Positions 1-49,423 of a stretch of DNA of 64,000 nt are shown here, one piece after another (position 1 is the stretch's first letter; every line of letters begins with the position of its first letter). The position numbers were made by a program, and so were the translations under genes. Source of the stretch: the human T2T-CHM13v2.0 reference genome, Homo sapiens; assembly GCF_009914755.1 (NCBI RefSeq), contig NC_060931.1; one strand, written 5' to 3'. Below the pieces are notes generated by a model. It had not been told where the DNA came from. It worked only from the letters and a program-made list of their open reading frames with translations, and made no database searches.

Positions 1-2494
1 ACCTTTCCTTTCAGTCAGCACTTTGGAAACACTGTTTTTGTAGAAACTGAGAAAGGATATTTGGCAGCACATTGAGGCCCAAGGTGAGAAAAGAAATATC
101 TTCAGATAAAAAGTAGCAAGAAGCTTTCTGAGAAATGGCTTTGTGATGTGCTCATTCCTCTAACAGAGTTAAGCATTTCTTTGGATTCAACAGTTTGATA
201 ACACAGTTTTTGTTCATTCTTTGAAAGGAAGTTTGGTAGCTCTTTGTGGCCAATGGCAAAAAAGGGAATATCCCAGGATTAAAACTAGAAGGAAGCTATC
301 AGAGAAACCGTTTTGTGGTGTTTGCATTCATCTAGTAGAGTTAAAACTTTCTTTTCATTCAGCAGTTTGGAAACACTGTTTTTGTAGAAACTGCTAAAGG
401 ATATTTGGCAGTGCATTATGCTTATGCTGAAAAAGGAAATATCTTCTTCTAAAAAATAGGAAAAACCTTTCTGAAAAACTACTCTGTGATGTGTTCATTC
501 ATCTCACAGATTTAAACCTTTCTTTCGATTCAGCTGTTTGGAAACACTGTTTTTGTCCATTCTGCGAATGGACGTTTGGGAGCTCATTGAGGCCAGTGGT
601 GATAAAATGAATATCCCAGGATAAAAACTGGAAGGAATTTATCAGAGAAAGCAATTTGTGATGTGGGAATTCATCTCACAGAGTTAAACCTTTCTTTTCA
701 TTCAGCAGTTTGGAAACACTGATATCTTAGAATCTGCAAAGAGATATTTGGTAGCACCTTGAGGTCTACGGAGAAAAAGGTAATAACTTCAGATAAAAAC
801 TAGAAGGAAGCATCGATGAGAAACTGTTTTGGTATGTGTGCATTCATCACACAGAGTTAAACCTTTCTTTGGATTCAGCAGTTTCAAAACACTGTTTTTA
901 TCAATTCTGCGAATGGACATTTGGGACCTCATTGAGGCCAATGGTGAAAAAGTGAATATCCCAGGATAAAAACTACAAGAAGTTATGTGAGAAACGGATT
1001 TATGATGTGTGCATTCATCTCACAGAGACAAAACTGTTTTTTTCTTTCAGCAGTTTGGAAACACTCTTATCTTAGAGTCTGCAGAGAGATATTTGGAAGA
1101 GTATGGAGGCCTATGGTGAAAAAGGAAATATCTTCAGATAAAAACGAGAAAGAAGCTTTCTGAGAAACTGCTTTGTGATGTCTTCATTCACCTCACAGAG
1201 TTAAGTGTTTCTTTGGATTCAGAAGTTTGGAAACACTGTTTGTGTCCATTTTGCGAATGGATACTTGGTAGCTCATTGAGGCCAATGATGAAAGAGTGAA
1301 TATCCCTGGATAAAAACTAGAAGGAAGTTATCAGAGAAACCGATTTGTGATGTTTGCATTAATCTCACAGAGTTAAACCTTTCTTTTCATTCAGCAGTTT
1401 GGAAACACTGTTTTCTTAGAATCTGCGAAGAAATATTTGGTAGTGCATTGAGGCTTATGGTGACTAAGAAATATGTTCAGATAAAAACTACAAAGAATCT
1501 TTCTGAGAAACTTCTTTGTGATGTATTCTTTCATCTTACAGGCTTAAACCTTTGTCTGAAGAGAGTTAAAACTTTCTTTGGATTCAGTATTTTGGAAACA
1601 CTGTTTTTCTCCACTCTGTGTATGGACATTTGGGAGCTCATTGAGGCCAATGGCAAAAAAAAAGAATATACCAGGATAAAAACTGGAAAGAAGGTATCAG
1701 AGAAACCATTTTGTGATGTGTGCATTCATCTCACAGTGTTAAATATTTCTTTTCATTCAGGAGTTTGGAAACACTAGTTTCTGAGAATCTGCAAAGAGAT
1801 ATTTGGAAGAGTAATGAGGCCAATGGTGAAAAAGGAAATATCTTCAATTAAAAACTGGAAAGAAGTTTAATGAGAAACTGGTTTGGGATGTGTGTATTCA
1901 TCTCAGAGAGTTAAACTTTTCCTTGGAATGAGCAGTTTGATAACACAGTTTTTGTCCATTCTGTGAATGGACCTTGGGAGCTCATTGACACCAAGGGCAA
2001 ATAAGTGAATATCTCAGGATTAAAACTGGAAGGAAATGACCTGAGAAACTGCTTTGTGAAGTGTGCACTCATCTTGCAGAGATAAACTTTTCGTTTCATT
2101 CAGGAGTTTGGAAACACTGTATTTTAGAAAGTGTGAAAGGATATTTGGCAGAGCGTTGAGGCCCATGGTGAAAAAGGAATTATCTTAAGAAAAAACTAGA
2201 AAGAACATTTCTGAGAAACTGCTTTCTGATGTGTGCATTCATTTCAAGAGTGAAATGTTTCTTTGGATTCAGCATTTTGGAAACACTCTTTTTGTAGAAT
2301 CTGTAAAAGGATATTTGGGAGTTCTTTGAGGTCAATGGTGGAAAAGTGAGTATCCCAGGATAAAAACTAGAAGGAAGGTATTTGAGATAGTGCTTTGTGA
2401 TGTGTGCATTTATCTCACCCAATTAAACCTTTCTTTTCATTCAGCAGTTTGGAACTGCTGGAACTCCAGGATCAAAACTAGATGGAATCTATTT
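1..2494 (+). repeat. Alpha satellite, diverged, dimer-like alternation of A-type monomers
   Basis: ~171-bp periodic motif (TGAGAAACTGCTTTGTGATGTGTGCATTCATCTCACAGAGTTAAAC...TTCAGCAGTTTGGAAACAC). Monomers alternately end ...GGAAATATCTTCAGATAAAAACTAGAAAGAAG and ...GAATATCCCAGGATAAAAACTAGAAGGAAG. Confidence 0.98.
1111..1127 (+). promoter_or_regulatory. pJ-alpha box (representative copy; recurs in about every second monomer)
   Basis: CTATGGTGAAAAAGGAA is the reverse complement of TTCCTTTTYCACCRTAG, the A-type monomer box. No YTTCGTTGGAARCGGGA CENP-B box was noticed in the window. Confidence 0.8.
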
Positions 2495-3133
2495 TTTTTA
2501 TTATACTTTAAGTTTTAGGGTACATGTGCACATTGTGCAGGTTAGTTACATATGTATACATGTGTCATGCTGGTGCGCTGCACCCACTAACTCGTCATCT
2601 AGCATTAGGTATATCTCCCGATGCTATCCCTCCCCCCTCCCCCCACCCCCCCAACAGTCCCCAGAGTGTGATATTTCCCTTCTTGTGTCCATGTGATCTC
2701 ATTGCTTAATTCCCACCTATGAGTGAGAATATGCGGGGTTTGGTTTTTTGTTCTTGTGATAGTTTACTGAGAATGATGATTTCCAATTTCATCCATGTCC
2801 CTACAAAGGACATGAACTCATCATTTTTTATGGCTGCATAGTATTCCATGGTGTATATGTGCCACATTTTCTTAATCCAGTCTATCATTGTTGGACATTT
2901 GGGTTGGTTCCAAGTCTTTGCTATTGTGAATAATGCCGCAATAAACATATGTGTGCATGTGTCTTTATAGCAGCATGATTTATAGTCCTTTGGGTATATA
3001 TCCAGTAATGGGATGGCTGGGTCAAATGGTATTTCCAGTTCTAGATCCCTGAGGAATCGCCACACTGACTTCCAGAATGGTTGAACTAGTTTACAGTCCC
3101 ACCAACAGTGTAAAAGTGTTCCTATTTCTCCAC
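2495..3133 (-). mobile_element. 5'-truncated LINE-1 (L1PA2/L1PA3-like), ~640 bp: ORF2 C-terminus, 3'UTR and short poly(A)
   Basis: ORF 2706-3065 matches the L1 ORF2p C-terminus (...WNQPKCPTMIDWIKKMWHIYTMEYYAAIK...SLIGGN). The 3'UTR has the GAG (not ACA/ACG) diagnostic, so it is not L1HS. Perfect TSD GGAATCTATTT at 2484-2494 and 3134-3144. Confidence 0.95.
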
Positions 3134-5242: not shown

Positions 5243-8200
5243 GAAGAAAGAAATATCTTCAGATAAACACTAGAAAGAAGCTTTCAGAGAAACTACTTTG
5301 TGATCTTTGCTTTCATGTCACAGAGTTACAACTTTCTGCGGAGTCAGCAATTTGAAAACACTGTTTTTTTCCATTCTGCAAATGAACATTTTGGAGCTCA
5401 TCAGGGTCAATGGCAAAAAAGAGAATATCCAGGATAAAAACTAGAAGGAAGCTATCTGAGAAACCGCTTCATGATGTGTGCATTCATCTCACAAAGTTAA
5501 AACATTTTTTTTTTTTCTGACAGCAGTCAGGAAACACTGTTTTGGCAGAACCCATGAAGGGATGTTTGGGAGCACATTGAGGCCCATGGTGAAAAACAAA
5601 ATATCTTCAGATAAAAACTACAAAGAAGCATTCTGAGAAACAGCTTTGTGACGTGTGCATTCATCTCACAGAGTTTAACCTGTTTTTGGATTCAGCATTT
5701 TGAAAACACAGTTGTTGTAGAATCTGCAAATGGACATTTGGGAGCTATTTGAGGTCAATGGTGAAAAGACGAATATCCCAGGTTAAAAACTAGAAGGAAT
5801 CTATGTGAGAAACTGCTTTGTGATGTGTGAATTAATCTCACATAATTAAACCTTTCTTTGATACAGCACTCTGGAAACACTGTTTTCGTAGAATTTGTGA
5901 AGGGATATCAGGGAATGCATTGAAGCCTGTGGTGAAAAAGGAAATGTCTTCAGATAAAAACTAGAAAGAAATTTCTCAAAAACTCCTTACTGATGTGTGC
6001 ATTCATTTCACAGAGTGACTTTTTTTTTATTCAGCAGTTTGGAATCACTGTTGTTGTAGAATCTGAGAAAGGGTATTTGGGAGCTCTTTGAGGTCAATGG
6101 TGAAAAAACCAATATCCCAATATGAAAACTAGAATGAAGGTATTTGAGAAACTGCTTTGTGATGTGTGCATTCACCTTGCAAAATTAAACCTTTATTTTC
6201 ATTCAGCAGTTTGTGAACAGTGTTTTCCTAGAAGCTGCAAAATGATATATGGGAGTAATTTGAGGCCTATGGTAAAAAACAAAATATCTTCAGAAAAAAA
6301 GTAGAAAGATTTCTGATAAACTGCTTTGTGATAAGTGCATTCACCTCACAGAGTTAAATGATTCTGTGAATTCAGCAGTTTGAAAACACTGTTGTAGAAT
6401 CTGTGAAGGAATATTTGGGAGCTCTTTGGAACCAATGGCCAAAAAGCCAGTATCCAAGAATAAAAACTGGAAGGAAGCCATCTGAGAAACACCTTTGTGA
6501 TGTGTGCATTCACCTCACAGAGTAAAACTTACTTTTCATTCAGCAATCTGGAACCACTGTTCTGGAAGAATCCCTGAAGGGATATTTGGGAGCACAATGA
6601 GGCCTATGGTGAAAAAGGAAACACCTTCAGATAAAAACTAGAAAGAAGCTTTCTGTGAAACTGCTTTGTGATGTGTGCATTGAAATCACAGAGTTAAACA
6701 TTTCTGTGTATTCAGCAGTTTGCAATTGATGTTTCTGTACTTTTTGCAAATGGACATTTGGGAGCTCATTGAAGTCAATGGCAAAAAAAAATCCCAGGAT
6801 AAAAACTAGAAGGAAGCTATTTGAGAAACAGCTTTATGATGTGTTCATTTATCTCACGGGGTTAACCCTTTCTGTGGAATCAGCAGTTTGGAAACACTGT
6901 GTTTGTCCATACTGCAAATGGACAATTGGGATCTCATTGAAGCCAAAGGCAAAAAAGGAAATATCCCAGGATAAAAACTAGAAAGAAGCTATCTGAGAAA
7001 CTGCTTTGTGATGTGTGCATTCAGCTTGCAGAGTTAACACTTTCTTTTCATACAGCTGTCTGGAAACACTGTTTTGGCAGAATCCATGAAGGGATATTTG
7101 GGAGCACATTGAGACCTATGGTGAAAAAGGAAATATCTTCATATAAAAACTAGAAAGAATTTTCTGAGAAACAGCTTTGTGATGTGCGCATTCATCTCAC
7201 AGAGTTAAACCTTTCTTTTGATTCAGCAGTTTGGAAACACTGTTATTGTTGAATCTGTGAAGGGATATTTGAGAGCTCATTTAGACCAATGTTGAAAAAG
7301 TCAATATTCCAGGATAAAAACTAGAAGCAAGCCATCTGAGAAACAGCTTTTTGTTGTATGCATTCACCTCACCAAAGTAAAAGTTACTTTTCTTTCAACA
7401 ATCTGGAAACACAGTTCTGGGAGAATCCCCGAAGGGTTATTTGGAAGCGCATTGAGGCCTATGTTGAAAAAGGAAGTATCTTCAGATAAAAACTATAAAG
7501 AAACTTTCTGAGAAATGGCTTTGTGATATGTGCATCCATCTCAAAGAGTTAAGCCTTTCTTTGGATTCAGCATTTTGGAAATGCTGTTGTTGTAGAATCT
7601 GTGAAGGGATATGCGGGAGTTCATTGAAGCCAATGGCGAAGAAGTGAATATCCAAGGATAAAAACTAGAAGAAAGCTTTTGAGAAACTGGTTTGCGATGT
7701 GTGCATTCATCTCATAGAGTTAAACCTTTCTTTTCATTGAGCACCTTGGAAACACTGTTTTTGTGGAATCTGTGAAGTGATATTTGGGAGTGGTTTGAGG
7801 CCTATGGTGAAAAAGGAAGTACCTTCAGAAAAAAATTAGAAAGAAGCTTTCTGAGAAACTGCTTTGTGAGGCATGCACTCACCTCACAGAGATAAACCAT
7901 TCTGCAGATTCAGCAGTTTGAAAACACTGTTGTTGTAGAATCTGTGAAGGAATATTTGGGAGCCCTTTGAGGCCAATGGCAAAAAAGCCAGCATGCCAGG
8001 ATAAAAACTAGAAGGAAGCTAACTGAGAAACAGCTACATGATGTGTGCATTCACCTCACAGAAGTAAAACTTACTTTTCCTTCAGAAATCTGGAAACACT
8101 GTTCTGGCAGAATCCCTGAAGTGATATTCAGGAGTGCATTGAGGCCTATGGTGAAAAAGGAAATATCTTCCAATAAAAACTAGAAATAAGCCTTCTGAGA

Positions 8201-9958
8201 AACTACTTTGTGATGTGTGCATTCATCGCAAAGAGATAAACGTTTCATTGGTTTCAGCAGTTGGAAAAACACTGTTGTTGTAGAATCTACATAGGGACGT
8301 TTGGGAGCTCATTGAGGCTAATGGCAAAAAAGCGAATATCCCAGGATAAAAACCAGAAGAAAGCTATTTGAGAAAGCATCTTGTGATGGGTGCATTCAAC
8401 TTGCAGAGATAAACATTTCTTTTTATTCAGCAGATTGGAAACACTCTTTTGGCAGAAACCCCAAAGTGAATATCTTGGAGGACATTGAGGCCTATGGTGA
8501 AAAAGGAAATACCTTCAGATGAAGACAAGAAAGAAGCATTCTGAGGAACTGCTTTGTGATGTGTGCATTCATCTCACAGAGTTAAACATTTGTTTTGATT
8601 CAGCAGTTTGGAAAATACTCTTTTTGTGGAATCTACAAAGGAATATTTGATAGCTCATTGATACCATAGGTGAAAAGCGAATATCACAGAAAAAAAAAAC
8701 TAGAAAGAAGCCATCTGAGAAACTGCTTTGTGATGTGTGCAGTCATCTCACAGAGGTAAACCTTTCTTTTCATTTAGCACTTTGGAAACACTGTTTTTGT
8801 GAATCTGCGAAGAGATATTTAGGATCGCATTGAGGCCTATGGTGAAAAAGGAAATATCTTCAGATAAGAAAGAAGCTTTCTGAGAAACTCCTTTTTGATG
8901 TGTGCATTCATCTTACAGTGTTAAACCTCTTTGCATTCAGCAGTTTGGAGATACTGTTTTTGTAGAATCTGCTAAGGGATATTTCATAGCTCAATGAGGC
9001 CATAAGGGAAAAAGTGAATATCCCAGTATACAAACTAGAAGGAAGCTATCTGAGAAACCACTCTGTGATGTGTGCATTCATCTCGTAGAGTTAAACGTTT
9101 CTTTTTCTTCAGCAGTTTGGAAACACGATTTTTATAGAATCTGAGAAGGGATATTTGGGAACGTATTGAGGCCTATGGTGAAAAAGGAAATATCTTCAGA
9201 TAAAAACTAGAAAGAAGCTTTCTGAAAAACAGCTTTGTGTTGTGCACATTCATAACACAGAGGTAAACGATTCTTTGGATTCAGCAGTTTGGAAAGACTG
9301 TTTTTGTCCTTTCTGCAAATGGACATTTCAGAGCTCATTGAGGCCACTGAGAAAAACATATATCCCAGGATAAAAACTAGAAGGAAGCTCTCTGAGAAAC
9401 TGGTTTGTGATTTGTGCATTCTTCTCACAGAGTTAAAGCTATCTTTTCATTCAGCAGTTTGGAAACACGTTTTTGTAGAATTTAATAAGGTATATTGGGA
9501 GCTCATTGAGGCCAACACGGAAAAAGCATATATCCCAGGATAAAAACTAGAAGAAAGTTCCTAGAAACCCATTTGTGATGTGTGCATTCACCGTGCACAG
9601 TTACACCTTTCCTTTCATTCATCAGCTTGGAAACACTGTTTTGTTAGAGTCTGTGAAGAGATATTTGGGAGCACATTGAGTCCTATGGTGAAAAAGGAAA
9701 TATTGTCAGATAAAAACAATAAATAAGCTTTCTGAGAATCTGCTTTGTGACGTGTGAATTCTTCTCACAGAGTTAAACCTTTCTTTATATTTAGCAGTTT
9801 GGAAACACTGTTTTTGTCCACTTTGCTAATGGACATTTGTGAGCTCATTAAGGCCAATGGTGAAAAAGCCAATATTCCAGGATAAAAAACAGAAGGAAGC
9901 TATTGGAGAAACTGCTTTGTGATGTGTGCGTTCATCTTGCAGAGTTAAATATTTCTTT
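5243..9958 (+). repeat. Alpha satellite
   Basis: ~171-bp monomers with dimer-like alternation, ending mid-monomer at AGAGTTAAATATTTCTTT. Confidence 0.98.
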
Positions 9959-9968
9959 ACTTTTTTGA

Positions 9969-10000
9969 TTTATTTATTCGGTTTATTTCATTCATTTATT
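9969..10000 (-). terminator. Cluster of AATAAA polyadenylation signals ending the read-through transcript
   Basis: TTTATT on + at 9969-9974, 9973-9978, 9982-9987 and 9995-10000. The 9982-9987 copy lies ~16 nt before the A tract. Confidence 0.6.
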
Positions 10001-10075
10001 CATTCATATATTCATTTAATCAACAAATGTATATTGAGCACTTACTATGTGCCAGGCTCTCTGTAAGTGTTGGGT
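9985..10075 (-). mobile_element. LINE-2 3'-end fragment
   Basis: TTCATTCATTTATTCATTCA...CAACAAATGTATATTGAGCACTTACTATGTGCCAGGC matches the reverse complement of the L2 3' terminus (ATTCATTCAACAAATATTTATTGAGCACCTACTATGTGCCAGGC). Confidence 0.8.
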
Positions 10076-10904
10076 TGCTGCTGGGTCTCACTTCTACCAC
10101 AAAGTTGGAAAACACAAAAACTCTGGTAGAGAAGTATTCTACCTCAGCCTGTCTCTGTAATAGTAGACATAACAGAAGCTAAATTTAAAAAGAGAACTCT
10201 AGAGATATTCTCTACCTACTATTCTCATGCTCTGAAGCCCAGGAAGAACAAGGGACAACATCTAAAAATTTTCTATGTCCCTGAGAAAAAGGTGTGATAG
10301 TGGCTGATTGTAGGAGATGGCCCCTGGAGTAGCATCATAATAAGGATGAATGGAGAGGCTATTGTAAACAGTATGAATTTAGTTAGCAGAGTACGAAAGG
10401 GGAAGAGGACATTTTAGTGTACTGCAGTAAGTGTCAGTTCCAGTCACCAAAGATGTTAATGGTGACTATATTTTTCAACAGAAGTCAGCATGCATGGATG
10501 CAATAAACCATGGACACATTAACCTCTTCCCTGAAGCCAGAATGACAAGGCTCTACCCCTGTGGAATTTAGATCAAAGGTCTGAGGAGAAGAAAATAAGT
10601 GAAAAGGAAGGACCTTGAAGTCACTAAGTAGAAACGTAGAATTGAGCAAACTTAAATCATAAAGTGAATGATTGCTCTGAAAGTGACAGTGTTTTTTTTT
10701 TATTATACTTTAAGTTCTAGGGTACATGTGCACAATATGCAGGTTTGTTACATATGTATACATGAGTCATGATGGTGTGCTGCACCTATTAACTCGTCAT
10801 TTTCATTAGGCATATCTCCTAATGCTATCCCTCCACCCTCCCCCCACCCCATGACAGGCCTGCATTGTGATGTTCCCCTTCCTGTGCCCAAGTGTTCTCA
10901 TTGT

Positions 10905-14721
<3,817 letters not shown>

Positions 14722-14784
14722 TATGATGTTATCTGATTATTTTGCTCGTTAGTTGATGCAGTTTCTTCTTAGTACTGATGGTCT

Positions 14785-15799
14785 TTACAATTTGCCATGT
14801 TTTTGCAGTGGCTGGTACCGGTTGTTCCTTTCCATGTTTAGTGCTTCCTTCAGGTGCTCTTGTAGGGCAGGCCTGGTAGTGATGAAGTCTCTCAGCATTT
14901 GCTTGTCTGTAAAGGATTTTATTTCTCCTTCACTTATGAAGTTTAGTTTGGCTGGATATGAAATTCTGGTTTGAAAATTCTTTTCTTTAAGAATGTTGAC
15001 TATTGGCCCCCAGTCTCTTCTGGCTTGTAGAGTTTCTGCCAAGAGATCAGCTGTTAGTCTGATGGGCTTCCCTTTGTGGGTAACACAACCTTTCTCTGTG
15101 GCTGACCTTAACACTTTTTCCTTCATTTCAACTTTGAGGAATCTGTCAATTATGTGTCTTGTGGTTGCTCTTCTCGAGGAGTATCTTTGTGGCATTCTCC
15201 TTATTTCCTGAATTTGAATGTTGTCCTGCCTTGCTAGGTTGGGGAAATTCTCCTGGATAATATCCTGCAGAGTGTTTTCCAACTTGGTTCCATTCTCTCT
15301 GTCACTTTCAGGTACACCAATCAGATGTAGATTTGGTTTTTTCACATAGTCCCATATGTCTTCGAGACTTTGTTCATTTCTTTTCACTCTTTTTTTCTCT
15401 AAGGTAATCTTCCTGCTTCATTTCATTCACTTTATCTTCAATCACTGATACCCTTTCTTCCAGTTGATGAAATTGGTTACTGAAGCTTGTGGATTCATCA
15501 AGTAGTTCTCGTGCAGTGGTTTTCAGCTCCATCAGGTCGTTTATGGGCTTCTTTACAAGGGTTATTCTGGATAGCCATTCTTCTAATGTTTTTTCAAGGT
15601 TTTTAGCTTCTTTGCAATGGGTTCGAACTTCCTCCTTTAGCTCAGAGAAGTGTGATCATCTGAAGCCTTCTTCCAACTCACCAAAGTCATTCTCCATCCA
15701 GCTTTGTTCCATTGCTGGCAAGGAGCTGCATTCCTTTGGAGGGGGAGAGGTGCTCTGATTTTTAGAATTTTCAGCTTTTCTGCTCTGTTTTTTCCCCAT
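14785..15799 (-). pseudogene. L1 ORF1 (RNA-binding chaperone), disrupted
   Basis: MGKKQSRKAENSKNQSTSPPPKECSS N-terminus (ATG at 15797-15799) and a 200-aa C-terminal part (..LENTLQDIIQENFPNLARQ..ISYPAKL..). The reading frame is interrupted between them. Confidence 0.95.
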
Positions 15800-16820
15800 C
15801 TTTGTGATTTTGCTACCTTTTGTCTTTGATGATATTGGTGTACAGATGAGGTGTTTGTGTGGGTGTCCTTTCTCTTTGTTAGTTTTCCTTCTATCAGTCG
15901 GGACTGTCAGCTGCAGGTCTGTTGAAGTTAGCTGGAGGTCCACTCCAGACCCTGTTAGCCTGGGTATCAGCAGCAGAGGCTGCAGAAAAGCGAATGTTGC
16001 TGAACAGTAAATGTTGCTGCCTGATTGTTCCTCTGGAGCTTTCATCTCAGAGGGGTACCCGGCTGTGTGAGGTGTCAGACTGCCCCTACTTGGTGGTGCC
16101 TCCTAGTTATGCTACTTGGGGGTCAGGGACCCATTTGAGGAGGCAGTCTGTCCATTCTCATATCTCAAACTCCATGCTGGGAGAACCTCTACTCTCTTCA
16201 AGGCTGCCATACTGGTACATTTAAGTCTGCAGAGGTTTCTGCTGCCTTTTGTTTGGCTATGCCCTGACCCCAGAGGTGGAGTCTACAGAGGCAGGCAGGC
16301 CTCCTTAAGCTGTGGTGGGCTCCACCCAGTTCAAGCTTCCTGGCGACTTTGTTTACCTACTCAAACCTCAGCAATGGCGGGCACCCCTCCCCCAGCCTCA
16401 CTGCTGCCTTGCTGTTTGATCTCAGACTGCTGTGCTAGCAATGAGCGAGGCACCTTCGGCATGGGATCTTCTGAGCCAGGCGCGGGATATAATCTCATGG
16501 TGTGTCATTTGCTAAGACCGTTGGAAAAGCACAGAATTAGTGTGGAAGTGAACTGATTTTCCAGGTGCCCTCCATCACAGATTTGCTTGTCTGGGAAAGG
16601 GTATTCCCTGACCACTTACACTTCCCCAGTGAGGTGATGCCTTGCTCTGCCTTGGGTCATGATCAGTGGGCTGAACCCACTTTCATACCCCACTCTCCAA
16701 CAAGCCCCAGTGAGATGAACAAGGTACCTCAGTTTGAGATGCAGAAATCACTGTCTTCTGTGTCGCTCATGCTCGGAGCTGTAGATTGGAGCTGTTCCTA
16801 TATGGCCATCTTGGAACACC
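15800..16820 (-). promoter_or_regulatory. L1 5'UTR internal promoter with YY1 site (16804-16813)
   Basis: CAAGATGGCC at the element 5' end; GC-rich but CpG-decayed UTR. Confidence 0.85.
16374..16556 (+). pseudogene. ORF0: L1 antisense ORF0, truncated at 60 aa
   Basis: MAGTPPPASLLPCCLISDCCASNERG...SEPGAGYNL...EKHRISVEVN* resembles primate L1 ORF0 (MAGAPPPASLPPCSLISDCCASN...). The ATG is in GCAATGG context; TGA replaces the Arg codon before FSRC. Confidence 0.85.
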
Positions 16821-16832
16821 CTCTGAAAGTGA

Positions 16833-19800
16833 AAACTTTCTTTTCATTCAGCAGTTTGGAAACACTTTTTTTGTAGAATCTGCGAAGGGATATTTGGGAG
16901 TGCATTGATGCCTATGGTTAAAAAGAAAATATCTTCAGTTGAAAACTAGAAAGAAGCTTTCAGAGAAACTGCTTTGAGATGTGTGCATTCACCTCACAGA
17001 GTTAAACGTTTCTTTTGATTCAGCAGTTTGGCCACACTGTTTTTCTCCACATTGCCAATGGACATTTGGGAGCTTATTGAGGCCGATGGTGAAAAAGCAA
17101 ATAGGCCTGGTTAAAAACTAGAAGGAATCTATCTGAGAAATTGCTTTGTGATGTGTGCATTCATCTCACAAAGTTAAACTGCTTTTCATTCAGCACTTTG
17201 GAAACACTGTTTTGGTAGCATCTGCGAAGGGATATTTGGGAGCTCATTGAGGCCTATGGTGAAAAATATCTTCAGATTAAAAATAAGAAAGAAGATTGCC
17301 GAGAAACTGCATTGTGATATGTGCATTAATCTCACAGGGTTAAGCCTTTCTGTGGTTTCAGCAGTTTGGAAACTGTTTTTATCTGTTCTGCAAATGGACA
17401 TTTCAGAGCTCATGGAGGACAATGGAGAAAAAGTGAAAATCCCATGATAAAAACTAGAAGGAAGCTATCTGAGAAACGGCTTTTCAATGTGTGATTTCAT
17501 CTCACAGAGTTAAGCCTTCATTTTCATTCAGCAGTTTGGAAACACTGTTTTGCTAAAATCTGGGAAGTGATATTTGGGAGCTAATTGAGGCCTAAGGTGA
17601 AAAAGGAAATAGCTTCAGATAAAAATTAGAAAGAAGCTTTCTGAGAAACTGCTTTGTGATGTGTGCATTCATCTCACAGATTTACAACTTTCTTTGGATT
17701 AAGAAGTATGGAAACACTGTTTTTGTAGAATCCGCAAAGGGATATTTGGGAGCTCATTGAGGCCAAAGTTGAAAAAGTGACTATCCCAGGAAAACACTAG
17801 AAGGAAGCTATCCGAGAAACCATTTTGTGATGTGTGGTTTCGCCTCACAGAGTTAACCCTGTCTTTGGATTCAGCAGTTTAGAAACATTGTTTCTGTAAT
17901 ATGTGCTGTGGGATAATTGGGAGCTCATTGAAGCCAAAGGTGAAAAAGCGTATATCCCAGGATAAAAACTAGAAGGAAGCTATCTCAGAAACCACTTTCT
18001 GATATGAGTATTCGTCTTGGAGACTTAAAACTTTCTTTACATTCAGCAGTTTGGAAACACGGCTTTTGTAGGATCTGCAAAGGGAGATTTGGGAGCACAT
18101 TGGGTCCTATGGTTAAAAAGGAAATATCATCAGATAAAAACTAGAAGGAAGCTTTCTCAGAAACTGCTTTGTGATTTGTGCATACATCTCACAGAGTTAA
18201 ACCATTCCTTGCATTCAGAAGTTTAGAAACACTGTTTTTTTGAATCTGTAAAGAGATATTTGATAGCTCATTGAGGCCATAGGGGAAAAAGAAATATCCC
18301 AGGATAAAAACTAAAAGGAAGTTATCTGAGAAATTCTTTTGTAATGTGTGCCTTCATCTCACAGAGTTAAACTTTTCTTTCCTTTCAGCAACTGGTAAAC
18401 ACCACTTTGGTAGAATCTACAAGGGATATTTGGGAATGTATTGAAGCCTATGGTGAAAAAAGAAATATCTTCAGATAAAAACTAAAAAGAAGCCTTCTGA
18501 GAAACTGCATTGTGATGTGTGCATTCATCACACAGAGTTAAAATTGCTTTGGAAACGGCAGTTTAGAAACAGTGTTTTTGTCCATTCTGCAAATTGACAT
18601 TTGTTAGCTCATTGACCCAATGACAAAAAAGAGAGTATCCCAGGATAAAAACTAGAAGGAAGCTATCTGAGAAACCACTTTGTGATGTGTGCATTAATCT
18701 CACAGAGTTAAATATTTCTTTTCATTCAGTAGTTTCAAAACACTTTTGGGGTAGAATGTGTGAAGGGATATTAGGGAGGGCATTGAGGCCTGTGGTGAAA
18801 AAGGAAATATCTTGAGATAAAAAACAAAAGAAGCTTTCCAAGAAACAGCTTTGTGATATGTGCACTCATCACACAGGGTTAAATCATTCTTTCCATTCAG
18901 CAGTTTGGAAACACTGTTTTAGGAGAATCTGCACAGGGATATTTTGGAGCTCACTGAGGCCAAAGTCAAGAAGTCAAATATTCAATGATAAAACTTAGAA
19001 GAAAGTTATCTGAGAATCCATTTGTGATGTGTGTATTCATCTCACACAGGTAAACTTTCTGTGCATTCAGAATTTTTGAAACACTTTTTTTTAAGAATCT
19101 GTGAAGAGGTATTTAGTGCAAATTGAGGCCTATGGTGAAAAAGGAAATATCTAAAGACAAAAACTAGAAAGAAGATTTCATAAAAAGTATTTTGTGATGT
19201 CTGCATTCATCTCAAAGAGTTGAACGTTTCTTTGGATTCAGCAGTTTGGAAACACTGTTTTTGTAGTATCTGTAAATTGATATTTGGGAACTCATTGCGG
19301 CCAAAGGCGAAAAAGCTAATATCCAAGGATAAAAATTTCAAGGAAGCTATGTGAGGCACGGCTTTGTGATGTGTGCATTCATCTTGCAGAGTTAAACATT
19401 TCCTTTCATTTAGCAGTTTGGAAACACTGTTTCGGTAGAATCTACAAAGGGATATTTGGGAGCGCATTGAAGACAATTGTGAAAAAGGAAATATCTTCAG
19501 ATAAATATGAGAAAGAAGCTTTCTGAGAAACTGCTTTGTGATATGTGCATTCATCTCACAGAGTTAAACATTTCTTTTGATTCAGAAGTTTTGAAACACT
19601 GTTTTTGTCCATTCTACAAATGGATATTTCTGATCTCACTGAGGCCAGTGGCGAAAAATCATATATACTCGGAGAAAAACTAGAAGGAAGTCATCTGAGA
19701 AACTGCTTTGTGATGTTTGCATTCATCTCACAGAGTTAAACCTTACTTTTCATTCACCGGTTTGGAAACACTGTTTCTTTAGAATCTACAAAGGGATCAT

Positions 19801-22800
19801 TGGCAGTGCATTTAGTCCTAAGGTGAAAAAGGAAATACCTTCAGATAAAAACTAGAAAGAAGCTTTCTGAGAAACTGCTTTGTGATGTGTGCATTCATCT
19901 CACAGAGATAAACCTGTCTTTGGATTCAGCAGATTGGAAACACTCCTTTTATAAAATCTTCGAAGGGGTATTTGATAGCTCATTGAGGCCAAAGGTGAAA
20001 AAGTGAATATCCCAGGATAAAAACCAGAAGGAACCTATCTGAGAAACTAGTATGAGATATGTGCATTCATCTGGCAGAGCTAAATTTTTCTTTTCATTCA
20101 GCAGTTTGGAAACACTGACTTGGTAGACTCTGGGAAGGGAAATTTGGGAGCACCATGAGACCTATAGTGAAAAAGGAAATATCTTCAGATAAAAACTGGA
20201 AAGAATCTTTCTGAGAAAGTACTTCTTGATATGTGCATTCATTTCACACACACACAGAGTTGAACCTTCCTTTGGCTTCAGCCATTTGGAAACATTGTTT
20301 TTGTCCCTTCTGCTAATGGACAGTTGGGAGCTCATTGAGGTCAATGGCAAAAAAGCGAACATCCTAGGATAAAAACTACAAGGAAGATATCTGAGAGACC
20401 AATTTGTGATGTGTGGATTCATCTCACATTCTTAAACCTTTCTAACCATTAGGCAGTTTGGAAACACAAATTTGGTAGAATCTGTAAAGGGATATTGGGA
20501 GCGCATTGGGGCCTACGGTGAAAAAGGAAATATCTTCAGGTAAAACTAGATAGAAGCTTTCTGGGAACTGTTTTGTGATGTGTACATTCATCTCACAGAG
20601 TTAAAACTTTCTCTGGATTGCACAGTTTGGAAACACTGTTGTTGTAGAAACTGCATAGGGATATTTGAGAGTGTATTGAGGCCGATGATGAAAAAGGAAA
20701 TATTCTCAGATAAAAACTAGAAAGAGCTTACTGAGAAACTACTTGGTGATGTGTGCATTCATCTCTCCCTGTTAAACCTTTCTTTTCATTCAGCAATTTG
20801 TAAAACTGTTTTTGTACAATCTGTGACATTATATTTGGGGGTGCATTGAGGCCTATAGTGAAAAGGAAATGTCTGCAGATAAAAACTAGAAAGAAGCTTT
20901 CTGAGAAATTGCTTTGTAATGTGTGCATTCATCTCACATAGTTAAATTCTTTATTTGGAGTCAGCAGTTTGGACCCACTGTTTTTGTCCATGCTGCAAAT
21001 GGACATTTGGGAGCTCAATGTGGCTAATGGCAATAAAGTGAATATCCCAGGATAAAACATAGAAGAAAGGTATCTGAGAAACCGTTTCTTGATGTGTGCA
21101 TTCATCTCTCAGAGTTAAACCTTTCTTTTCATTCAGCAGTGTGGAAACTCTGTTTTCGTAGAATCTGCAAAGAGATATCTGGAAATGCATTGAGGTCAAT
21201 GATGAAAAAGGAAAAATCTTCAGATGAAAACTAGAAAGAAGATTTCTGAGAAACTGCTTTGTGATGTGTGCATTCACCTCACAGAGTTAAATCTTTCTTT
21301 GTTTTCATCAGTTTGGAAACACTGTTTTTGTCAATTTTGCAATTGGACATTTGGGAGATCATTGAGGCCAATGGCAAAAAAGCACATATCCCAGGATAAC
21401 AACTAGAAGAAAGCTAAAGGAGAAATCACTTTGTCATGTGTGCATTCCTCTCACAGAGTTAAACCTTTCTTTTCATTCTGCAGTGTGGAAACCATGTTTT
21501 TGTAGAATCTGTGAAGGGATAACTGAGAGTGCATTGAGGCTTATGGTGACAAAGGAAATACGTTCAGATAAAAACTAGAAAGAAGCTTTCTGAGAAACTG
21601 CTTTGTGATGTGTGCATTCACCTCACCGAGTTAAACCTTTCTTTGGATTCAGCAGTTTGGAAACACTGTTTTGGTAGAATCTAAGATGGGATATTTAGGA
21701 ATGCATTGAGGCTAAAGACAAAAAAGTGAACGTGCCAGGATAAAAACTAGAAGGAAGCTATCTGAGAAACTGCTTTGTGATGTGCACATTCATCTTGCCA
21801 AGGTTAACCTTGCTTTTCGTTCAGCAGTTTCAAAACACTGCTTTGGTAGAATATGCAAAGGGAAGTTTGGGAGCACATTGAGGCCTATGGTGAAAAAGGA
21901 ATTAACATTCAGATAAAAACTACAAAAAAGCTTTCTGGGAAACTTCTTTGTGATGGGTGCATTCATCTGACAGAGTTAAACTTTTCTTTGGATTCAGCAG
22001 TTTGGACACACTATTTTTGTCTATTCTGTGAATGGACATTTGAAATCTCATTGAGGCCAATGGTGAAAAATTGAATATGCCAGTATAAAAATTATAAAGA
22101 CACTATCTGAGAAACTGCTTTGTGATGTGTGCATTCATCTCACACAGTTGAACCTTTCAACCATTAAGCAGATTGGAAACACAATTTTGGTGGAATCTGA
22201 AAAGGGATATTTGGGGGCACAGCAAGGACTATGGTGGAAAAAGAAATATCTTCAGATAAAAAATAGAAAGTAACTTTCTGAGAAACTGCTTTGTGACATT
22301 TGCATTCATCTCACAGAGTTAAACCTTTCCTTGGACTCCATAGTTTGGAAACACTGTTTTGTAGAATCTGCAAAGGTATATTTTGGACGTCATTGAGGCC
22401 AAAGGGAAAAAAGTGAATATCCCAGGATAAAAACTAGAAGGAGGCTATCTGAGTAATCTCTTAGTGATGTGTGCATTCATCTCACAGAGTTAAACTTTCC
22501 CTTTCATTCAGCAGTTTGGAAACACTGTTTTTGTAGAATCTATGAAGGGATATTTAGAAGTGCATTGAAGACTATGGTGAAAAAGGAAATATCTTCAGAT
22601 AAAAATGAGAAAGAAGCTTTCTGAGAAACTACTTTGTGATGTGTGCATTCATCTCACAGAGTTAAACATTTCTTTAGATTCAGAAGTTTGGAAACACTGT
22701 TTTTGTCCATTCTATAAATGGATATTTCCAATCACATTGAGGCCAGTGATGAAAAATAATATATCCCCAGATAAAAACTAGAAGGAAGTCATCTGAGAAA

Positions 22801-25800
22801 CCACTTTGTGATGTTTGCATTCATCTTACAGAGTTGAACCTTACTTTCCATTCAGCATTTTGGAAACACTGATTTTTTAGAACCTGTGAAGGGATCATTG
22901 GCAGTGCATTGAATCCTAAGGTGAAAAAGGAAATATCTTCAGATAAAAACTAGAAAGAAGCTTTCGGAGGATCTGCTTTTGATGTGTGCATTCATCTCAC
23001 AGAGATAAACCTGCCTTTGGATTCAGCAGATTGCAAACACTGTTTTCATAGAATCTGCAAAGGGATACTTGGGAGCTCATTGAGGCCAAAGTGAAATAGC
23101 AAATATCCCAGGATAAAAACTAGAAGGAAGCTGTCTGAGACACCGCTTTGCAATGAGTGCATTCATCTTCCACAGTTAAACTTGTCTTTTCATTCAGCAG
23201 TTTGGAAACACTTTTTTCTGTAGAATATGCAAAGGGATATTTGGGAGTGCATTGAGGCCAATTTTTAAAAGGAATTATCTTCAGATAAATACTAGTAAGA
23301 AGCTTTCTGTGAAACTGATTTGTGATGTGTGCTTTCATTACAGGGAGTTAAATCTTAACTTGGACTCTGCAGTTTCAAAAATCTGTTTTTGTGAATTGTG
23401 CAAGTGGATGTTTTGAAACTCTTTGAGGCAAATCATGAGAAAGCTAATATCCCAGGACAAAAACTATAGGGAAGTTGAGAAACCACTGTGTGATGTGTGC
23501 ATTCATCTCACGGTGGTAAACATGTCTTTTCATTCAGCAGTTTGGAAAAAGTAATCTCTTTGTGATGTGTGCATTCACCTCGTGAACTTCTAACTTTCTT
23601 TTCATTCAGCAGTTTAGAAACACTGTTTTATTAGAATCTGCAAAGGGGTATTTGGGAGTGCAATTAAGTGTATGGTGCGAAAGGAAATATCTTCAGAAAA
23701 AACTAAAAAGAACTTTTCTGAAAAACTGCTTTGTGATGTGTGCATTCTTCTCACAGAGTTAAAACTTTCTGTGGATTCAGCAGTTTGCAAACAGTTTTTT
23801 TTGCATACTGTAAATGGACATTTTGGAGCTCATTGAGACCAATGGCAAAAAAAGGGAATATCCAAGGATAAAAACTAGAAGGAAGCTACCTAAGAAAACT
23901 CTTTGCGTTGCTTTCCTTCATCTCTAAGAGTTAAATTTTTCTTTTCACTCAGCAGTTTGTGAACACTGTTTTGGTAGAATCTGCTAAGGGACATTTTGGA
24001 GGGCATTGAGGCTTATGGTGAAAAAGGAAATATCATCAGATAAGTAGAAAGAAGCTTTATGACAAACTGTTTTGTGATGTGTGCATTCAACTCACAGGGT
24101 TAAACTTTTCTTTGAATCAGCAGCCTGAAAACACAGTCCTTGTGCATTCTGTGAATGGACATTTGGGAGCTCATTGAGGCCGTAGGTGAAAAAGCAAATA
24201 TCCCAGGATAAAAACTAGAAGAAAGGTATCTGAGGAACCGCTTTGTGAAATGTGCATTCATCTCACAGTGTTAAATCTTTCTTTTCATTCAACAGTTTGG
24301 AAACACTATTTTGGTAGGCTCTGCGATGAGATATATGGGAGCACATGGATGCCTAGGGTGAAAAAGGAAGTATCTTCAGATAAAAAGTAGAAAGAAGCTT
24401 TCTGTGAAACTGCTTTGTGATGTGTGCATTCATCTCACAGAGTTAAACCTTTCTTTGGATTAAGCAGGTTGGAAACACAGTTTTTGTAGAATCCACGAAG
24501 GGATATTATATATCTCATTGATGCTATAGGTGAAAAAGGTTATATCCCAGGATCAAAAATAAAAGGAAGCTATCTGTGAAACTGCTTTGGAAGTGTGAAT
24601 TCGCCACACAGAGATAAACCTTTCTTCTCATTCATCAGTTTGAAAACACTGTTTTGGTAGAATCTGCAAAGGGATATTTGAGAGTGCATTGAGGCCTATC
24701 ATGAAAAAGGAAATATTTTCAGATAAAAACTAAAAAGAAGCTTTCTTAGAAACTTCTTTGTGATGTGTACATTCATCTCACAGAGTTATACCATTCTTTT
24801 GATTCAGCATTTTGGAAATATTGTTTTTGTCCATTCTGCAAATAGACATTTGGGAACTCTTTGAGGCCAATGGCGAAAATGCTAATATCCCAGCAAAAAA
24901 ACTGGTAGGAGACTATTGGAGAAACCCCTGTGTGATGTGTCCATTCAAGTCACAGAGTTAACACTTTCCTCTCATTCAGCAGTTTGGAAACATTGTTTTG
25001 GTAGAATCTGTGAAGGGATATTTGGTAGCTTTTTGATGTTTACGAGGAAAAAGAAAATATCTTCAAATAAAACAAGAAAGAAGATTCCACATACACTGCT
25101 TTGTGATGTGTGCATTCATGTTGCAGAGTTAAAACTTTCTTTGTATTCAGTAGTTTGGAAACACTGTTTTTGTAGAATCTGTGAAGGGATATTTGATAGC
25201 TCATTGAGGCCATATGGGAAAAAAGGATTACTCCAGGTTAAAAAATACAAGAAGCTAAATGAGAAACTTCCTTGTGATGTGTGCATTCATCTCACAATGT
25301 TAATCTTTTCTTTGGATTCAACAGTTTGGAAAAGCTGTTTTTGTAGAATTTGCAAAGGGATATTTGGTAGCACATTGAGGCCAAAGGTGATAAAGGGAAT
25401 ATCCCAGGATAAAAACTAGGAGGATGTTATCTGAGAAACCACTTTGTGATGTGTGCATTCATCTCACAGAGTTACACCTTTCTTTTCGTTCAACAGTTTG
25501 GAAACTCTGCTTCTATAGAATGTGCAAATGGATATTTGGGAGCCCATTGAGGCCTATGATGAAAAAGGGGACATCTTCAGATAAAAACTAGAAAGAAGAT
25601 TTCTGAGAAACTGCTTTGTGATGTGTGGATTGATCTAATAGAGTTAAACCTTTGTTTGTATTCAGCAGATTGGAAACACTGTTTTTGTCAATTCTTTGAA
25701 TGGACACTCCAGAGCTCCTAGTGGACAATGGAGAAAAAGTGAATATCCTAGGGAAAAAAAAAACTAGAAGGAAGCTATCTGAAAAACTTCTTTTTGATGT

Positions 25801-48500: not shown

Positions 48501-49423
48501 AGTCTGCTTTCTAGTTTTTATCTGAAGTTATTTCCTTTTTCACTGTAGGCCAAAATGCACTCCCTAATATTCCTTCATAGATTCTACAAAATCAGTGTTT
48601 CCAAACTGCTGAGAAAGGCATGGTTTACTTCTGTGAGATGACTGCACACATCACAAGTGATTTCTTATATAACTTCCTTCTAGTTTTATGCTGGATATTG
48701 GCTTTTTCACCTTTGGCCTCAATGAGTTCCCAAATATCCCTTCACAGATCCTACAAGAACATTGTTACCAATCTGCTGAATCCAAAGAAAGGCTTAACTC
48801 TGTGAGATGAATGGACACATCACAATGCAGTTTCTCAGAAAGTTTCTTTCTAGTTTTTATCTGAAGATATTTCCTTTTTAACCACAGGCCTCAATGCTCT
48901 CCCAAATATGCATTCACAGATTCCACTAAAACAGATGTTTCCAAACTGCTGAATGAAAATAAAATTTTAACTCTGCAAGACTAATACACACATTGCAAAC
49001 CAGTTTATCAGATAGCTTCCTTGAAGTTTTTATCCTTGGGTATTTACTTTTTCACCACTGACCTCATTGAGCTCCCAAATATTTATTTGCTTATCCTACA
49101 AAAACCGTGTTTACAAACTGCTGAATTGAAAGAAGTTTTAAATCTGTGAGATGAATGAACATCACAAAGCAGTTTCTCATAAAGCTTCTTTTAGTGTTAA
49201 TCTGAAGTTACTTTCTCTTTCACCATAGGCCTCAATGCACTTCCAAATATCCCTTTGCAGATACTACAAAAACAGTGCCTCCAAACTGAGAACTGAAAAG
49301 GATGGTTTACCTCTGCAAGATGAATGCACACATCACAAAGCTGTTTCTCAGATAGCTTCCTTCCAGTTTTTATCCTGGTATATTTGCTTTATCGCCTTTG
49401 GCCTCAATGAGCTCCCAAATATC
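33559..49423 (-). repeat. Alpha satellite in inverted orientation (~15.9 kb)
   Basis: Motifs appear as reverse complements (GTTTAACTCTGTGAGATGAATGCACACATCACAAAGCAGTTTCTCAG; TTCCTTTTTCACCATAGGCCTCAATG). Confidence 0.98.

What the first reader, a model, noticed from the sequence alone, without database searches (positions are those of the whole stretch)
9947..16844. Full-length L1 that carried ~730 bp of foreign flank (3' transduction) into alpha satellite
Seen: on the minus strand the order is L1, poly(A), ~730 bp of non-alphoid DNA, AATAAA cluster, short A tract, satellite. The interrupted monomer resumes in register after the L1 with a ~12-bp degenerate duplication (AAATATTTCTTT 9947-9958 vs AAAACTTTCTTT 16832-16843) at a TTTT/CA site. 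Known: L1 transcripts often read through their weak poly(A) signal, and the L1 endonuclease prefers TTTT/AA-like sites. Inference: the whole ~6.9-kb unit arrived in one TPRT event, leaving a unique tag of its source locus in satellite.
Basis: partly seen in the sequence, partly recalled or inferred. Interest (0 to 1): 0.8.

Follow-up and report, generated by a model that had tools for sequence, protein, structure and literature searches.

The report
L1 with chr11 tag in alpha satellite
A dead full-length L1 retrotransposon carried about 730 bases of chromosome 11 DNA into chromosome 7 pericentromeric satellite in one copy-and-paste event, which is an ordinary, well-known kind of event whose donor site can be pinpointed here even though the parent L1 is no longer there.

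Summary
On the minus strand there is a broken 6.1-kb full-length L1 (10702-16823), its poly(A) (10692-10701), a 729-nt non-alphoid tag (9963-10691), four AATAAA hexamers, a very short A-rich tail, then alpha satellite that resumes in register.

The tag occurs in only two other places in the assembly. One is chr11:85,131,396-85,132,124 (90%), the donor. Homology there ends at a good poly(A) site at one end and at a TTTT/AA endonuclease site at the other. No L1 sits at that site now. A much younger Alu occupies the same nick. The 12 nt just outside the L1 5' end on chr7 equal the chr11 sequence before that nick. This fits a lost progenitor L1 at that spot whose transcript started 9-12 nt upstream.

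The other copy lies 256 kb away on chr7. It shares about 1.6-1.9 kb of alphoid flank, the tag and the 3' part of the L1. Its L1 5' end comes from another L1 and abuts a chr8-derived duplicon, so it is an L1-L1 recombinant and not an independent sibling.

Only the register counts.

Verdict: a 3' transduction, and a new example of a known kind.

The parts
7900..9946 (+). Alphoid (monomeric/dimeric alpha satellite) left flank. This is the part that is paralogous to the second chr7 copy P (C7:64.186-64.188 Mb).
   Evidence: TRF array 5243-9958, period 172/343. The collinear P chunk is the best of about 240 hits for 9 of 9 chunks from 8378 to 9616, ranks 1/3/1 for chunks 8036-8378, and ranks 7-226 for chunks starting at 7865 or further left. 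Non-CpG mismatch to P is 9.5%.
9947..9959 (+). Left copy of the putative 13-nt target-site duplication (AAATATTTCTTTA). The plus-strand nick site reads ...CTTTCTTTT/CA.
   Evidence: P's left copy is AAATCTTTTTTTT. The inferred ancestral left copy matches the right copy at 12/13, but identity is not above the alphoid background.
9960..9966 (-). Terminal A-rich tail remnant of the whole insert. 9960-9962 is untemplated, and 9963-9966 also matches chr11.
   Evidence: P keeps a longer remnant: 7 untemplated nt, CTTTTCT on the plus strand.
9963..10691 (-). Transduced tag, 729 nt, derived from chr11:85,131,396-85,132,124. AATAAA hexamers (minus strand) lie at 9969-10000. A short dispersed-repeat piece lies roughly within tag positions 1-117.
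   Evidence: Identity is 90.0% to chr11 and 91.7% to P.
10675..10686 (+). CTCTGAAAGTGA, first copy of the 12-mer, inside the tag 5 nt before the L1 poly(A). It is native chr11 sequence just before the TTTT/AA nick.
10692..10701 (-). Internal poly(A) of the L1 (T10 on the plus strand). Up to 4 of these T's could be the chr11 TTTT.
10702..16823 (-). Full-length L1 body, 6122 nt, inactive.
   Evidence: Pfam Transposase_22 and Tnp_22_dsRBD at 14785-15387, Exo_endo_phos (below cut-off) at 14226-14525, and RVT_1 at 12417-12994 in two frames. The longest ORF is 200 aa. The 5' end matches other full-length L1s to within 0-8 nt.
15378..15470 (.). Change point in divergence between W and P. On the 3' side the non-CpG mismatch is 8.5%, and on the 5' side it is 15.9%. 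This is the latest possible position of the L1-L1 crossover that made P.
   Evidence: (best point 15403, 2dLL 62.9).
16821..16832 (+). CTCTGAAAGTGA, second copy of the 12-mer, directly outside the L1 5' end. Read as a remnant of the progenitor's 5' TSD (a 9-12-nt 5' carry-over).
   Evidence: It is not part of the chr7 TSD: at the same phase the left flank reads GCAGAGTTA in both W and P, a 5/9 match.
16832..16844 (+). Right copy of the putative 13-nt TSD (AAAACTTTCTTTT).
16845..23548 (+). Alphoid right flank, in register with the left flank.
   Evidence: (array 16828-23548).

Best explanation
One target-primed reverse transcription event put a read-through L1 transcript into monomeric alpha satellite on proto-chromosome 7.

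The progenitor L1 sat in minus orientation at the TTTT/AAAT site now at chr11:85,132,127/8. It probably had an 18-21-bp TSD. Its transcript began 9-12 nt upstream of the element, inside the 5' TSD copy. It ran through the weak L1 poly(A) signal and was cleaved about 730 nt downstream at a chr11 AATAAA site.

L1 endonuclease nicked the alphoid plus strand at CTTTCTTTT/CA. The whole RNA was copied, giving 9-12 nt of carry-over, the full-length L1, A10, the tag and a short A tail, with about 13 nt of target overlap.

The progenitor allele was later lost: it either never fixed or was precisely removed. Much later, a young Alu used the same chr11 nick.

After about one fifth of the elapsed time, a homology-driven event copied about 1.6-1.9 kb of alphoid flank, the tag and the 3' part of the L1 to a site 256 kb distal. 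Alphoid provided the homology on one side and L1 on the other. There the copy is fused, within the L1, to the 5' end of a different L1 that lay in a chr8-derived duplicon.

Shown: the anatomy, the donor locus, both donor boundaries, the young age of the Alu, and the mosaic nature of P. Inferred: the existence of the lost progenitor, its TSD length and start site, and the exact recombination pathway for P.
For: 1. The tag has only two other full-length copies in the assembly, C11:85131396-85132124 (90%) and C7:64188439-64189172 (91%).

2. Distal boundary. chr11 homology stops at GAAAA|TTCATCTGCTTTGTGCT. That is 15-19 nt after the middle of three AATAAA hexamers, with a GU-rich element downstream. 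In the window an A-rich tail and alphoid DNA follow.

3. Proximal boundary. Homology stops at GACAGTG-TTTT. The empty-site sequence is GACAGTGTTTT/AAATAATC, a consensus endonuclease site. Only 18 positions in the 10-kb locus (0.18%) are T>=4 runs followed by AA. The site is proven usable, because an Alu with a perfect 11-bp TSD sits in it.

4. The Alu is far younger than the transfer. It has 4 substitutions and 1 indel against the majority of its 29 closest copies, and 21 CpGs against 22. The tag shows about 4.8% per lineage. So the Alu did not mediate the junction.

5. CTCTGAAAGTGA lies directly outside the L1 5' end (16821-16832). It equals the chr11 sequence 9 nt before the nick. None of the other 284 same-phase alphoid sites shares 12 nt with the chr11 pre-nick 44-mer (2 reach 10 nt, 1 reaches 11). 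Of 20,000 shuffles, 1 reaches 12.

6. L1 start sites a little upstream of the element are common: median -21 in 5' RACE (PMC2768975, passages read).

7. The alphoid array resumes in register with a 13-nt overlap and correct monomer alternation.

8. In the passages I read, LINE-1 chimeras made by template switching carry the foreign RNA at the L1's 5' end, not its 3' end (PMC13174262).

9. For P: the collinear best-hit test, the change point at 15403, W and P 5' segments each closer to 39 other L1s than to each other, and 9.65 kb of chr8 homology at 91.7% starting at the first base past P's L1.
Against: - No progenitor L1 is present at chr11 in this assembly. Only weak (<=76%), oppositely oriented old L1 pieces lie in the 16 kb examined, about 6.9 kb to one side of the tag and 8.4 kb to the other.
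- TSD identity is no better than between unrelated alphoid monomers, so an insertion with a target-site deletion of whole dimers cannot be excluded.
- The terminal A tail is very short: 3 untemplated nt in W and 7 in P.
- The alphoid nick reads TTTT/CA rather than TTTT/AA.
- One distant alphoid monomer (window 55254) reads CTCTGAAAGTTA, 1 mismatch from the 12-mer, so an alphoid origin for that string is unlikely but possible.
- The L1 body cannot confirm W/P paralogy. 39 other genomic L1s listed in each are mostly as close or closer to W (89-93%, 92-93%) than P is (about 90-92%), and P is in neither list.
- Reuse of the same nick by an L1 and later by an Alu is an unexplained coincidence under every model.
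Confidence: 0.8

Rival explanations
1. Template-switch or RNA-ligation chimera. No L1 ever sat at chr11. L1 reverse transcriptase began on a polyadenylated chr11 transcript. At the AAAA run it jumped, with the cDNA ending in TTTT, onto the poly(A) tail of an L1 mRNA and copied it to its 5' end.
For: No progenitor L1 is present at chr11. The junction lies in a T4/A4 run that could serve as microhomology. The tag ends at a good poly(A) site, as any cellular RNA 3' end would. Template switching by ORF2p is an accepted mechanism (PMC13174262, passages).
Against: Only 18 of 87 T>=4 runs in the 10-kb locus (4 of 30 locally) are followed by AA, yet the junction is one of them. The 12-nt chr11 string outside the L1 5' end has no explanation under this model. 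In the passages read, catalogued chimeras have the foreign RNA 5' of the L1, and the L1 is usually truncated in the repeat-RNA classes. Here a complete L1 would have been copied after the switch.
Confidence: 0.07
2. Two separate events. A chr11 fragment first reached the alphoid array, either by DNA-level duplication or as a retrocopy. An unrelated full-length L1 then inserted exactly at its edge.
For: Pericentromeric DNA here does collect duplicons: 9.65 kb of chr8 DNA at 91.7% lies 256 kb away. TSD identity cannot prove a single event.
Against: The alphoid register is restored only across the whole L1-plus-tag unit. The L1 poly(A) abuts the tag at the nucleotide that is an endonuclease site in chr11, not on chr7. 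The tag's other end is a poly(A) site followed by an A tail. The right-hand 12-mer is followed by alphoid DNA, not by the rest of the chr11 sequence, so the L1 did not insert into a longer chr11 fragment.
Confidence: 0.04
3. The distal copy P is the original insertion, with its 5' end joined to the chr8 duplicon through a TPRT-associated target deletion. The window copy W would then be the derived one, for instance by a second read-through transduction that carried alphoid flank.
For: W/P similarity appears at first sight to end at the L1 5' terminus, as an RNA-mediated copy would.
Against: The true limit of paralogy lies inside the L1, at or 3' of 15403. P's 5' 1.3 kb belongs to a different L1 lineage. 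No poly-T and no phase jump mark the left limit of paralogy in either copy. P's right flank has no TSD partner: the 20-mer with up to 3 mismatches finds only itself in 96 kb. W keeps alphoid DNA in register on both sides.
Confidence: 0.06

Closest known systems
L1 3' transduction (read-through of the L1 poly(A) signal). Catalogued genome-wide in T2T-CHM13 by Hoyt et al., bioRxiv 10.1101/2021.07.12.451456 (passages read). The classic papers (Moran 1999, Goodier 2000, Pickeral 2000) are recalled, not read.
   Same: The order is L1, internal poly(A), unique flank, downstream AATAAA, second A tail. The flank maps to one donor locus, and the whole unit sits in one target site.
   Different: The progenitor is absent from the donor locus in this assembly, and a younger Alu occupies the same nick. 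The target is alpha satellite, so the TSD cannot be verified by identity. Whether this locus is in the Hoyt et al. tables is unknown, because I could not see the supplements.
Short 5' flank carry-over from L1 transcription starting upstream of the element (Lavie et al. 2004, not held; Rangwala et al. 2009, PMC2768975, passages read).
   Same: 9-12 nt of the donor's upstream flank (here the 5' TSD copy) lie directly outside the L1 5' end, within the reported range of start sites (median -21).
   Different: The inference rests on a single 12-nt identity. The progenitor is not available to confirm its TSD.
L1-L1 non-allelic homologous recombination, also called L1 recombination-associated deletion (Han et al. 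2008, recalled; I saw the term only as a search term).
   Same: Copy P has a mosaic L1. Its two ends have unrelated flanks (alphoid plus tag on one side, a chr8 duplicon on the other) and no TSD.
   Different: The other boundary of the transferred segment lies in alphoid DNA and is in register. So the event used two different repeat families as homology arms. Alternatively it was a duplication followed by a deletion.
LINE-1 chimeric insertions by template switching or RNA ligation (PMC13174262, passages read).
   Same: A bipartite insertion made in one TPRT event.
   Different: In the passages read, those chimeras carry the non-L1 RNA at the L1's 5' end. Here the foreign part is 3' of a complete L1 and starts at an endonuclease site of the donor.

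Membership tests
LINE-1 (primate L1PA-type, full length) | ORF1 with RNA-binding domains | tested here: met
   PF02994 at 5.9e-54 and PF17490 at 3.9e-40, window 14785-15387, minus strand.
LINE-1 (primate L1PA-type, full length) | ORF2 reverse transcriptase | tested here: met
   PF00078 at 4.1e-17 (12620-12994), and a second piece at 4.9e-06 in another frame (12417-12695).
LINE-1 (primate L1PA-type, full length) | ORF2 APE-type endonuclease | tested here: inconclusive
   PF14529 (23.7 bits) and PF03372 (21.1 bits) at 14226-14525, both below the curated cut-offs. The frame is broken.
LINE-1 (primate L1PA-type, full length) | Complete 5' UTR and canonical 3' end with poly(A) | tested here: met
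   39 other L1s align to within 0-8 nt of the 5' terminus. The 3' 1.5 kb is 92-93% identical to 39 other copies. T10 lies at 10692-10701.
   No Dfam or Repbase library was available. The divergence (about 4.8% per lineage for the tag; best L1 matches 93%) fits an L1PA5-to-L1PA7-age element only by recalled rates.
L1 3' transduction | Non-L1 DNA lies between the L1 poly(A) and a second poly(A) signal plus A tail | tested here: met
L1 3' transduction | The transduced DNA is single-copy and maps to a donor whose homology ends at the poly(A) site | tested here: met
L1 3' transduction | The donor flank begins at an L1 integration site (progenitor or its empty site) | tested here: inconclusive
   The boundary is a consensus TTTT/AA site proven usable by an Alu, and a 12-nt remnant of the presumed 5' TSD exists. 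The progenitor L1 itself is absent from this assembly.
L1 3' transduction | One TSD flanks the whole unit | tested here: inconclusive
   The register and a 13-nt overlap are met. Identity (10/13) is not above the alphoid background.
L1-L1 recombinant (copy P) | A mosaic element with a change of lineage along its length, and flanks of different origin without a TSD | tested here: met
Template-switch LINE-1 chimera | The foreign RNA is joined at the 5' end of the L1 segment | tested here: not met
   The foreign segment is 3' of the L1. The definition is taken from passages in PMC13174262.

The most novel reading that the evidence does not exclude
The unit is an 'inverse' LINE-1 chimera. ORF2p began on a polyadenylated cellular transcript from chr11 and switched at an A4 run onto the poly(A) tail of an L1 mRNA, then copied all 6.1 kb. 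That would be a class with the foreign RNA 3' of a full-length L1. It would masquerade as a 3' transduction and would be missing from chimera catalogues built around foreign RNA at the L1's 5' end. In this reading the absence of any progenitor L1 at chr11 is real rather than a loss.
Probability: 0.07. Interest if true: 0.55.

Novelty: new member of a known kind. Interest (0 to 1): 0.3.

Why it matters
It is a clean worked example rather than a discovery, with three uses.

- The tag dates and orders events in a pericentromeric region that is otherwise hard to read. The order is transfer from chr11, then the W/P split after about a fifth of the elapsed time, with the chr8 duplicon at a similar level of divergence, and the chr11 Alu much later.
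- Junction strings alone can place a progenitor L1 allele that no longer exists. They give its site and orientation, and tentatively its TSD length and transcription start.
- The edge of the chr7 alphoid domain was remodelled by recombination that used an L1 and alphoid DNA as homology arms.

For scans of satellite DNA there is a practical lesson. TSD identity is meaningless inside alphoid arrays, and only the phase is informative.

Tried and rejected
- Alu-first models (an L1 inserting into the Alu A tail, or a template switch at the Alu A tail). Rejected because the chr11 Alu is very young.
- Alu Pol III read-through as the source of the tag. Rejected on sequence: the first AAAA on the plus strand (TTTT in the sense RNA) lies about 90 nt from the junction.
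- Serial (second-generation) transduction as the origin of P. No poly-T or phase jump at the left limit, no TSD partner, and the right limit is inside the L1.
- Using the L1 body to prove W/P paralogy. This was uninformative, because other L1s are as close or closer.
- Fetching full-length L1s from both 5' hit lists for a bootscan-type analysis. I replaced it with a change-point analysis on data already held.
- Lavie 2004 and Athanikar 2004 are not held.
- L1 subfamily naming and the gene context of the chr11 donor could not be tested. I recall that the donor region lies in a long intron of DLG2, transcribed in the same sense as the tag, but no call checked this.

Full report
**Anatomy**

- Plus-strand alphoid DNA runs to 9959.
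- 9960-9962 (CTT) is untemplated.
- 9963-10691 is non-alphoid DNA, the tag.
- 10692-10701 is T10.
- 10702-16823 is an L1 in minus orientation.
- Alphoid DNA resumes after a 9-12-nt odd string (16821/16824-16832).
- Minus-strand AATAAA hexamers lie at 9969-9974, 9973-9978, 9982-9987 and 9995-10000.

TRF finds alphoid arrays of period 172/343 at 5243-9958 and 16828-23548.

The L1 carries ORF1 RNA-binding domains (14785-15387, E 5.9e-54 and 3.9e-40), a sub-threshold endonuclease match (14226-14525) and RVT_1 split over two frames (12417-12994). Its longest ORF is 200 aa, so it is dead. Its 5' end aligns to within 0-8 nt of the ends of 39 other full-length L1s.

**Is the tag a repeat?**

No. An own-assembly search with 9962-10692 scored 40 matches from 50 candidates. 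Three are full length: the window itself, C7:64188439-64189172 (91%) and C11:85131396-85132124 (90%). The other 37 cover only query positions 1-117, a short dispersed repeat that I recall as MIR-like but did not test.

**The chr11 donor**

blastn and alignments show that chr11 homology spans exactly window 9963 to the T run at 10692.

*Distal end.* The chr11 minus strand reads ...AATAAATGAAGGAAATAAACTGAATTAATAAATGAAAA|TTCATCTGCTTTGTGCT.... There are three AATAAA hexamers. Homology ends 15-19 nt after the middle one, and a GU-rich element follows. This looks like a real polyadenylation site. In the window an A-rich remnant and alphoid DNA follow instead.

*Proximal end.* chr11 reads ...CTCTGAAAGTGACAGTG followed by the poly-T of a minus-strand Alu. 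The Alu's perfect TSD, GACAGTGTTTT, gives the empty site GACAGTGTTTT/AAATAATC. That is a consensus L1 endonuclease site. Only 18 positions in the 10-kb locus (0.18%) are T>=4 runs followed by AA.

No related L1 lies in the 16 kb of chr11 examined. That stretch covers about 6.9 kb on the side beyond the tag's poly(A) end and about 8.4 kb on the side beyond the Alu.

**The Alu is a later arrival**

39 other genomic Alus are 97-98% identical to it. Against the majority of the 29 closest copies it has 4 substitutions and one T indel, and it keeps 21 CpGs where the majority has 22.

A three-way alignment of the tag covers 729 ungapped columns. It gives 26 private changes in the window copy (W), 30 in the second chr7 copy (P), 42 on the chr11 branch plus stem, and 5 three-way differences. 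Under a clock this puts the transfer at about 4.8% per lineage and the W/P split at about 3.85%. With recalled neutral rates that is roughly 25-45 My, and the Alu is well under 10 My old.

Models in which the Alu A tail mediated the junction are therefore rejected. What remains is that an L1 poly(A) on chr7 and an Alu poly(A) on chr11 abut the same nucleotide. This shows that the tag begins at a working endonuclease site, as the 3' flank of an L1 insertion must.

**A remnant of the progenitor's 5' TSD**

The 12 nt directly outside the L1 5' end (CTCTGAAAGTGA, 16821-16832) are identical to the tag/chr11 sequence that ends 9 nt before the nick (10675-10686).
- The 9-mer TGAAAGTGA occurs three times in the window. 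None of those hits lies in alphoid DNA.
- I examined 285 anchor sites (same-phase alphoid sites on both strands, the junction being one of them) against the chr11 pre-nick 44-mer. The longest shared string is 4-8 nt in 281, 10 nt in 2, 11 nt in 1 (a different place in the 44-mer), and 12 nt only at this junction.
- One of 20,000 shuffles reaches 12.
- The string cannot be part of the chr7 TSD. The left flank reads GCAGAGTTA at that phase in both W and P, a 5/9 match.

The simplest reading has three parts. The progenitor at chr11 had an 18-21-bp TSD (TGAAAGTGACAGTGTTTT). Its transcript started 9-12 nt upstream of the L1, inside the 5' TSD copy. Those nucleotides were carried along.

Start sites slightly upstream of L1s are common: the median is -21 in 5' RACE (PMC2768975, passages). 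Lavie 2004 itself is not held.

One caveat applies. A distant alphoid monomer at 55254 reads CTCTGAAAGTTA, so an alphoid origin for the string is unlikely but not impossible.

**The chr7 target**

The right flank restarts 14-19 nt before the left flank stops (nearest in-phase matches). With the 9-nt carry-over removed, the overlap is 13 nt.

The last left monomer and the first right monomer are of alternating types, by my reading.

65.5% of 284 other same-phase 13-mers match at 10/13 or better, and 19.4% at 12/13 or better. Only the register counts. My rough estimate of its chance probability is 14/171, halved for monomer type.

The nick is at CTTTCTTTT/CA.

**The second chr7 copy (P)**

P lies 256,477 bp distal. 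A single collinear alignment joins window 5252-16814 to C7:64183708-64195304. Only part of that is true paralogy.

*Left limit.* The collinear chunk is the best of about 240 alphoid hits for 9 of 9 chunks from 8378 to 9616. It ranks 1/3/1 for chunks 8036-8378, and 7-226 for chunks starting at 7865 or further left. There is no poly-T or phase jump at that limit.

*Non-CpG mismatch.*

| Segment | Mismatch |
|---|---|
| Alphoid flank | 9.5% |
| Tag | 6.9% |
| L1 to 13250 | 7.9% |
| L1 13251-15500 | 9.5% |
| L1 15501-16814 | 15.8% |

*Right limit.* The change point is at 15403, with a 2-lnL interval of 15378-15470, going from 8.5% to 15.9% (2dLL 62.9).
- In the 5' 1.3 kb, W's 39 best genomic hits are 86-88% and P's are 89-91%. 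W against P is about 83%, and the two lists share no locus.
- The change point sits just upstream of the ORF1 RNA-binding domains, a region I recall as differing between L1 subfamilies.
- The L1 body on its 3' side cannot discriminate.
- So the crossover lies anywhere between the L1 3' end and about 15470.

*Beyond P's L1.* From the first base past P's L1 5' end, 9,651 columns align at 91.7% to C8:84633767-84624229. chr8 has no L1 at that point, and the other side of the chr8 breakpoint is absent from the 96 kb examined and from the window. P's right flank has no TSD partner.

P is therefore an L1-L1 recombinant between a W-type copy and another L1 that sat in a chr8-derived duplicon. It arose either by duplication followed by NAHR deletion, or by a single ectopic repair event that used alphoid and L1 as homology arms. 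It is not an independent sibling insertion.

**Comparison with what is known**

This is a standard L1 3' transduction. Hoyt et al. catalogued such events across CHM13: 183 top-confidence L1 3' events, with chr7 the richest target (preprint passages; supplements not seen). Their passages also describe TE insertions in monomeric alpha satellite.

My searches found no description of this particular locus. They were narrow, and the relevant tables were not visible to me.

In the passages read, template-switch chimeras have the opposite polarity (PMC13174262).

**Verdict**

Confidence in a 3' transduction from a now-absent progenitor at chr11:85.132 Mb is 0.8. This is a new member of a known kind, of modest interest.

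Noticed in passing
window 2487-3133: A 0.65-kb L1 3'-end fragment interrupts the alphoid array. It is 96.3% identical, in inverted orientation, to C7:64167487-64168128. That is a younger and separate paralogy between this window and the region 240 kb distal.
   Followed up: no
window 33560-33633 and about 49423: The alphoid array changes strand. The TRF consensus units for 33633-49423 are the reverse complement of those on either side, so about 16 kb of the satellite is inverted relative to its neighbours.
   Followed up: no
L011 7629-7926 (chr11:85,132,128-85,132,425): A very young Alu: 4 substitutions and 1 indel against its 29 closest copies, 21 CpGs where their majority has 22, a pure T18 run and a perfect 11-bp TSD. 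It sits in the same endonuclease nick that bounded the tag tens of millions of years earlier. It may be polymorphic in people, which I did not test.
   Followed up: partly
L014 7814-10000 and L021 (C7:64195314-64204867): At least 9.65 kb of chr8-derived duplicon (91.7% to C8:84624229-84633767, inverted) starts at the distal edge of the alphoid DNA I examined on chr7, directly at an L1 5' end.
   Followed up: partly
window about 9100-9250: The A/B dimer alternation of the left alphoid flank appears to slip by one monomer. Right-flank dimers match better at odd monomer offsets further left than about 9250.
   Followed up: no
L013 about 7660-7668 (tag/L1 junction in copy P): Copy P lacks 8 nt (ACAGTGTT or equivalent) that W and chr11 both have just before the L1 poly(A). 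The deletion lies between GTG repeats and looks like replication slippage.
   Followed up: no
C7:64108053-64109531: Another L1 segment covering ORF1 and the endonuclease region, 90% identical to W, lies between W and P.
   Followed up: no
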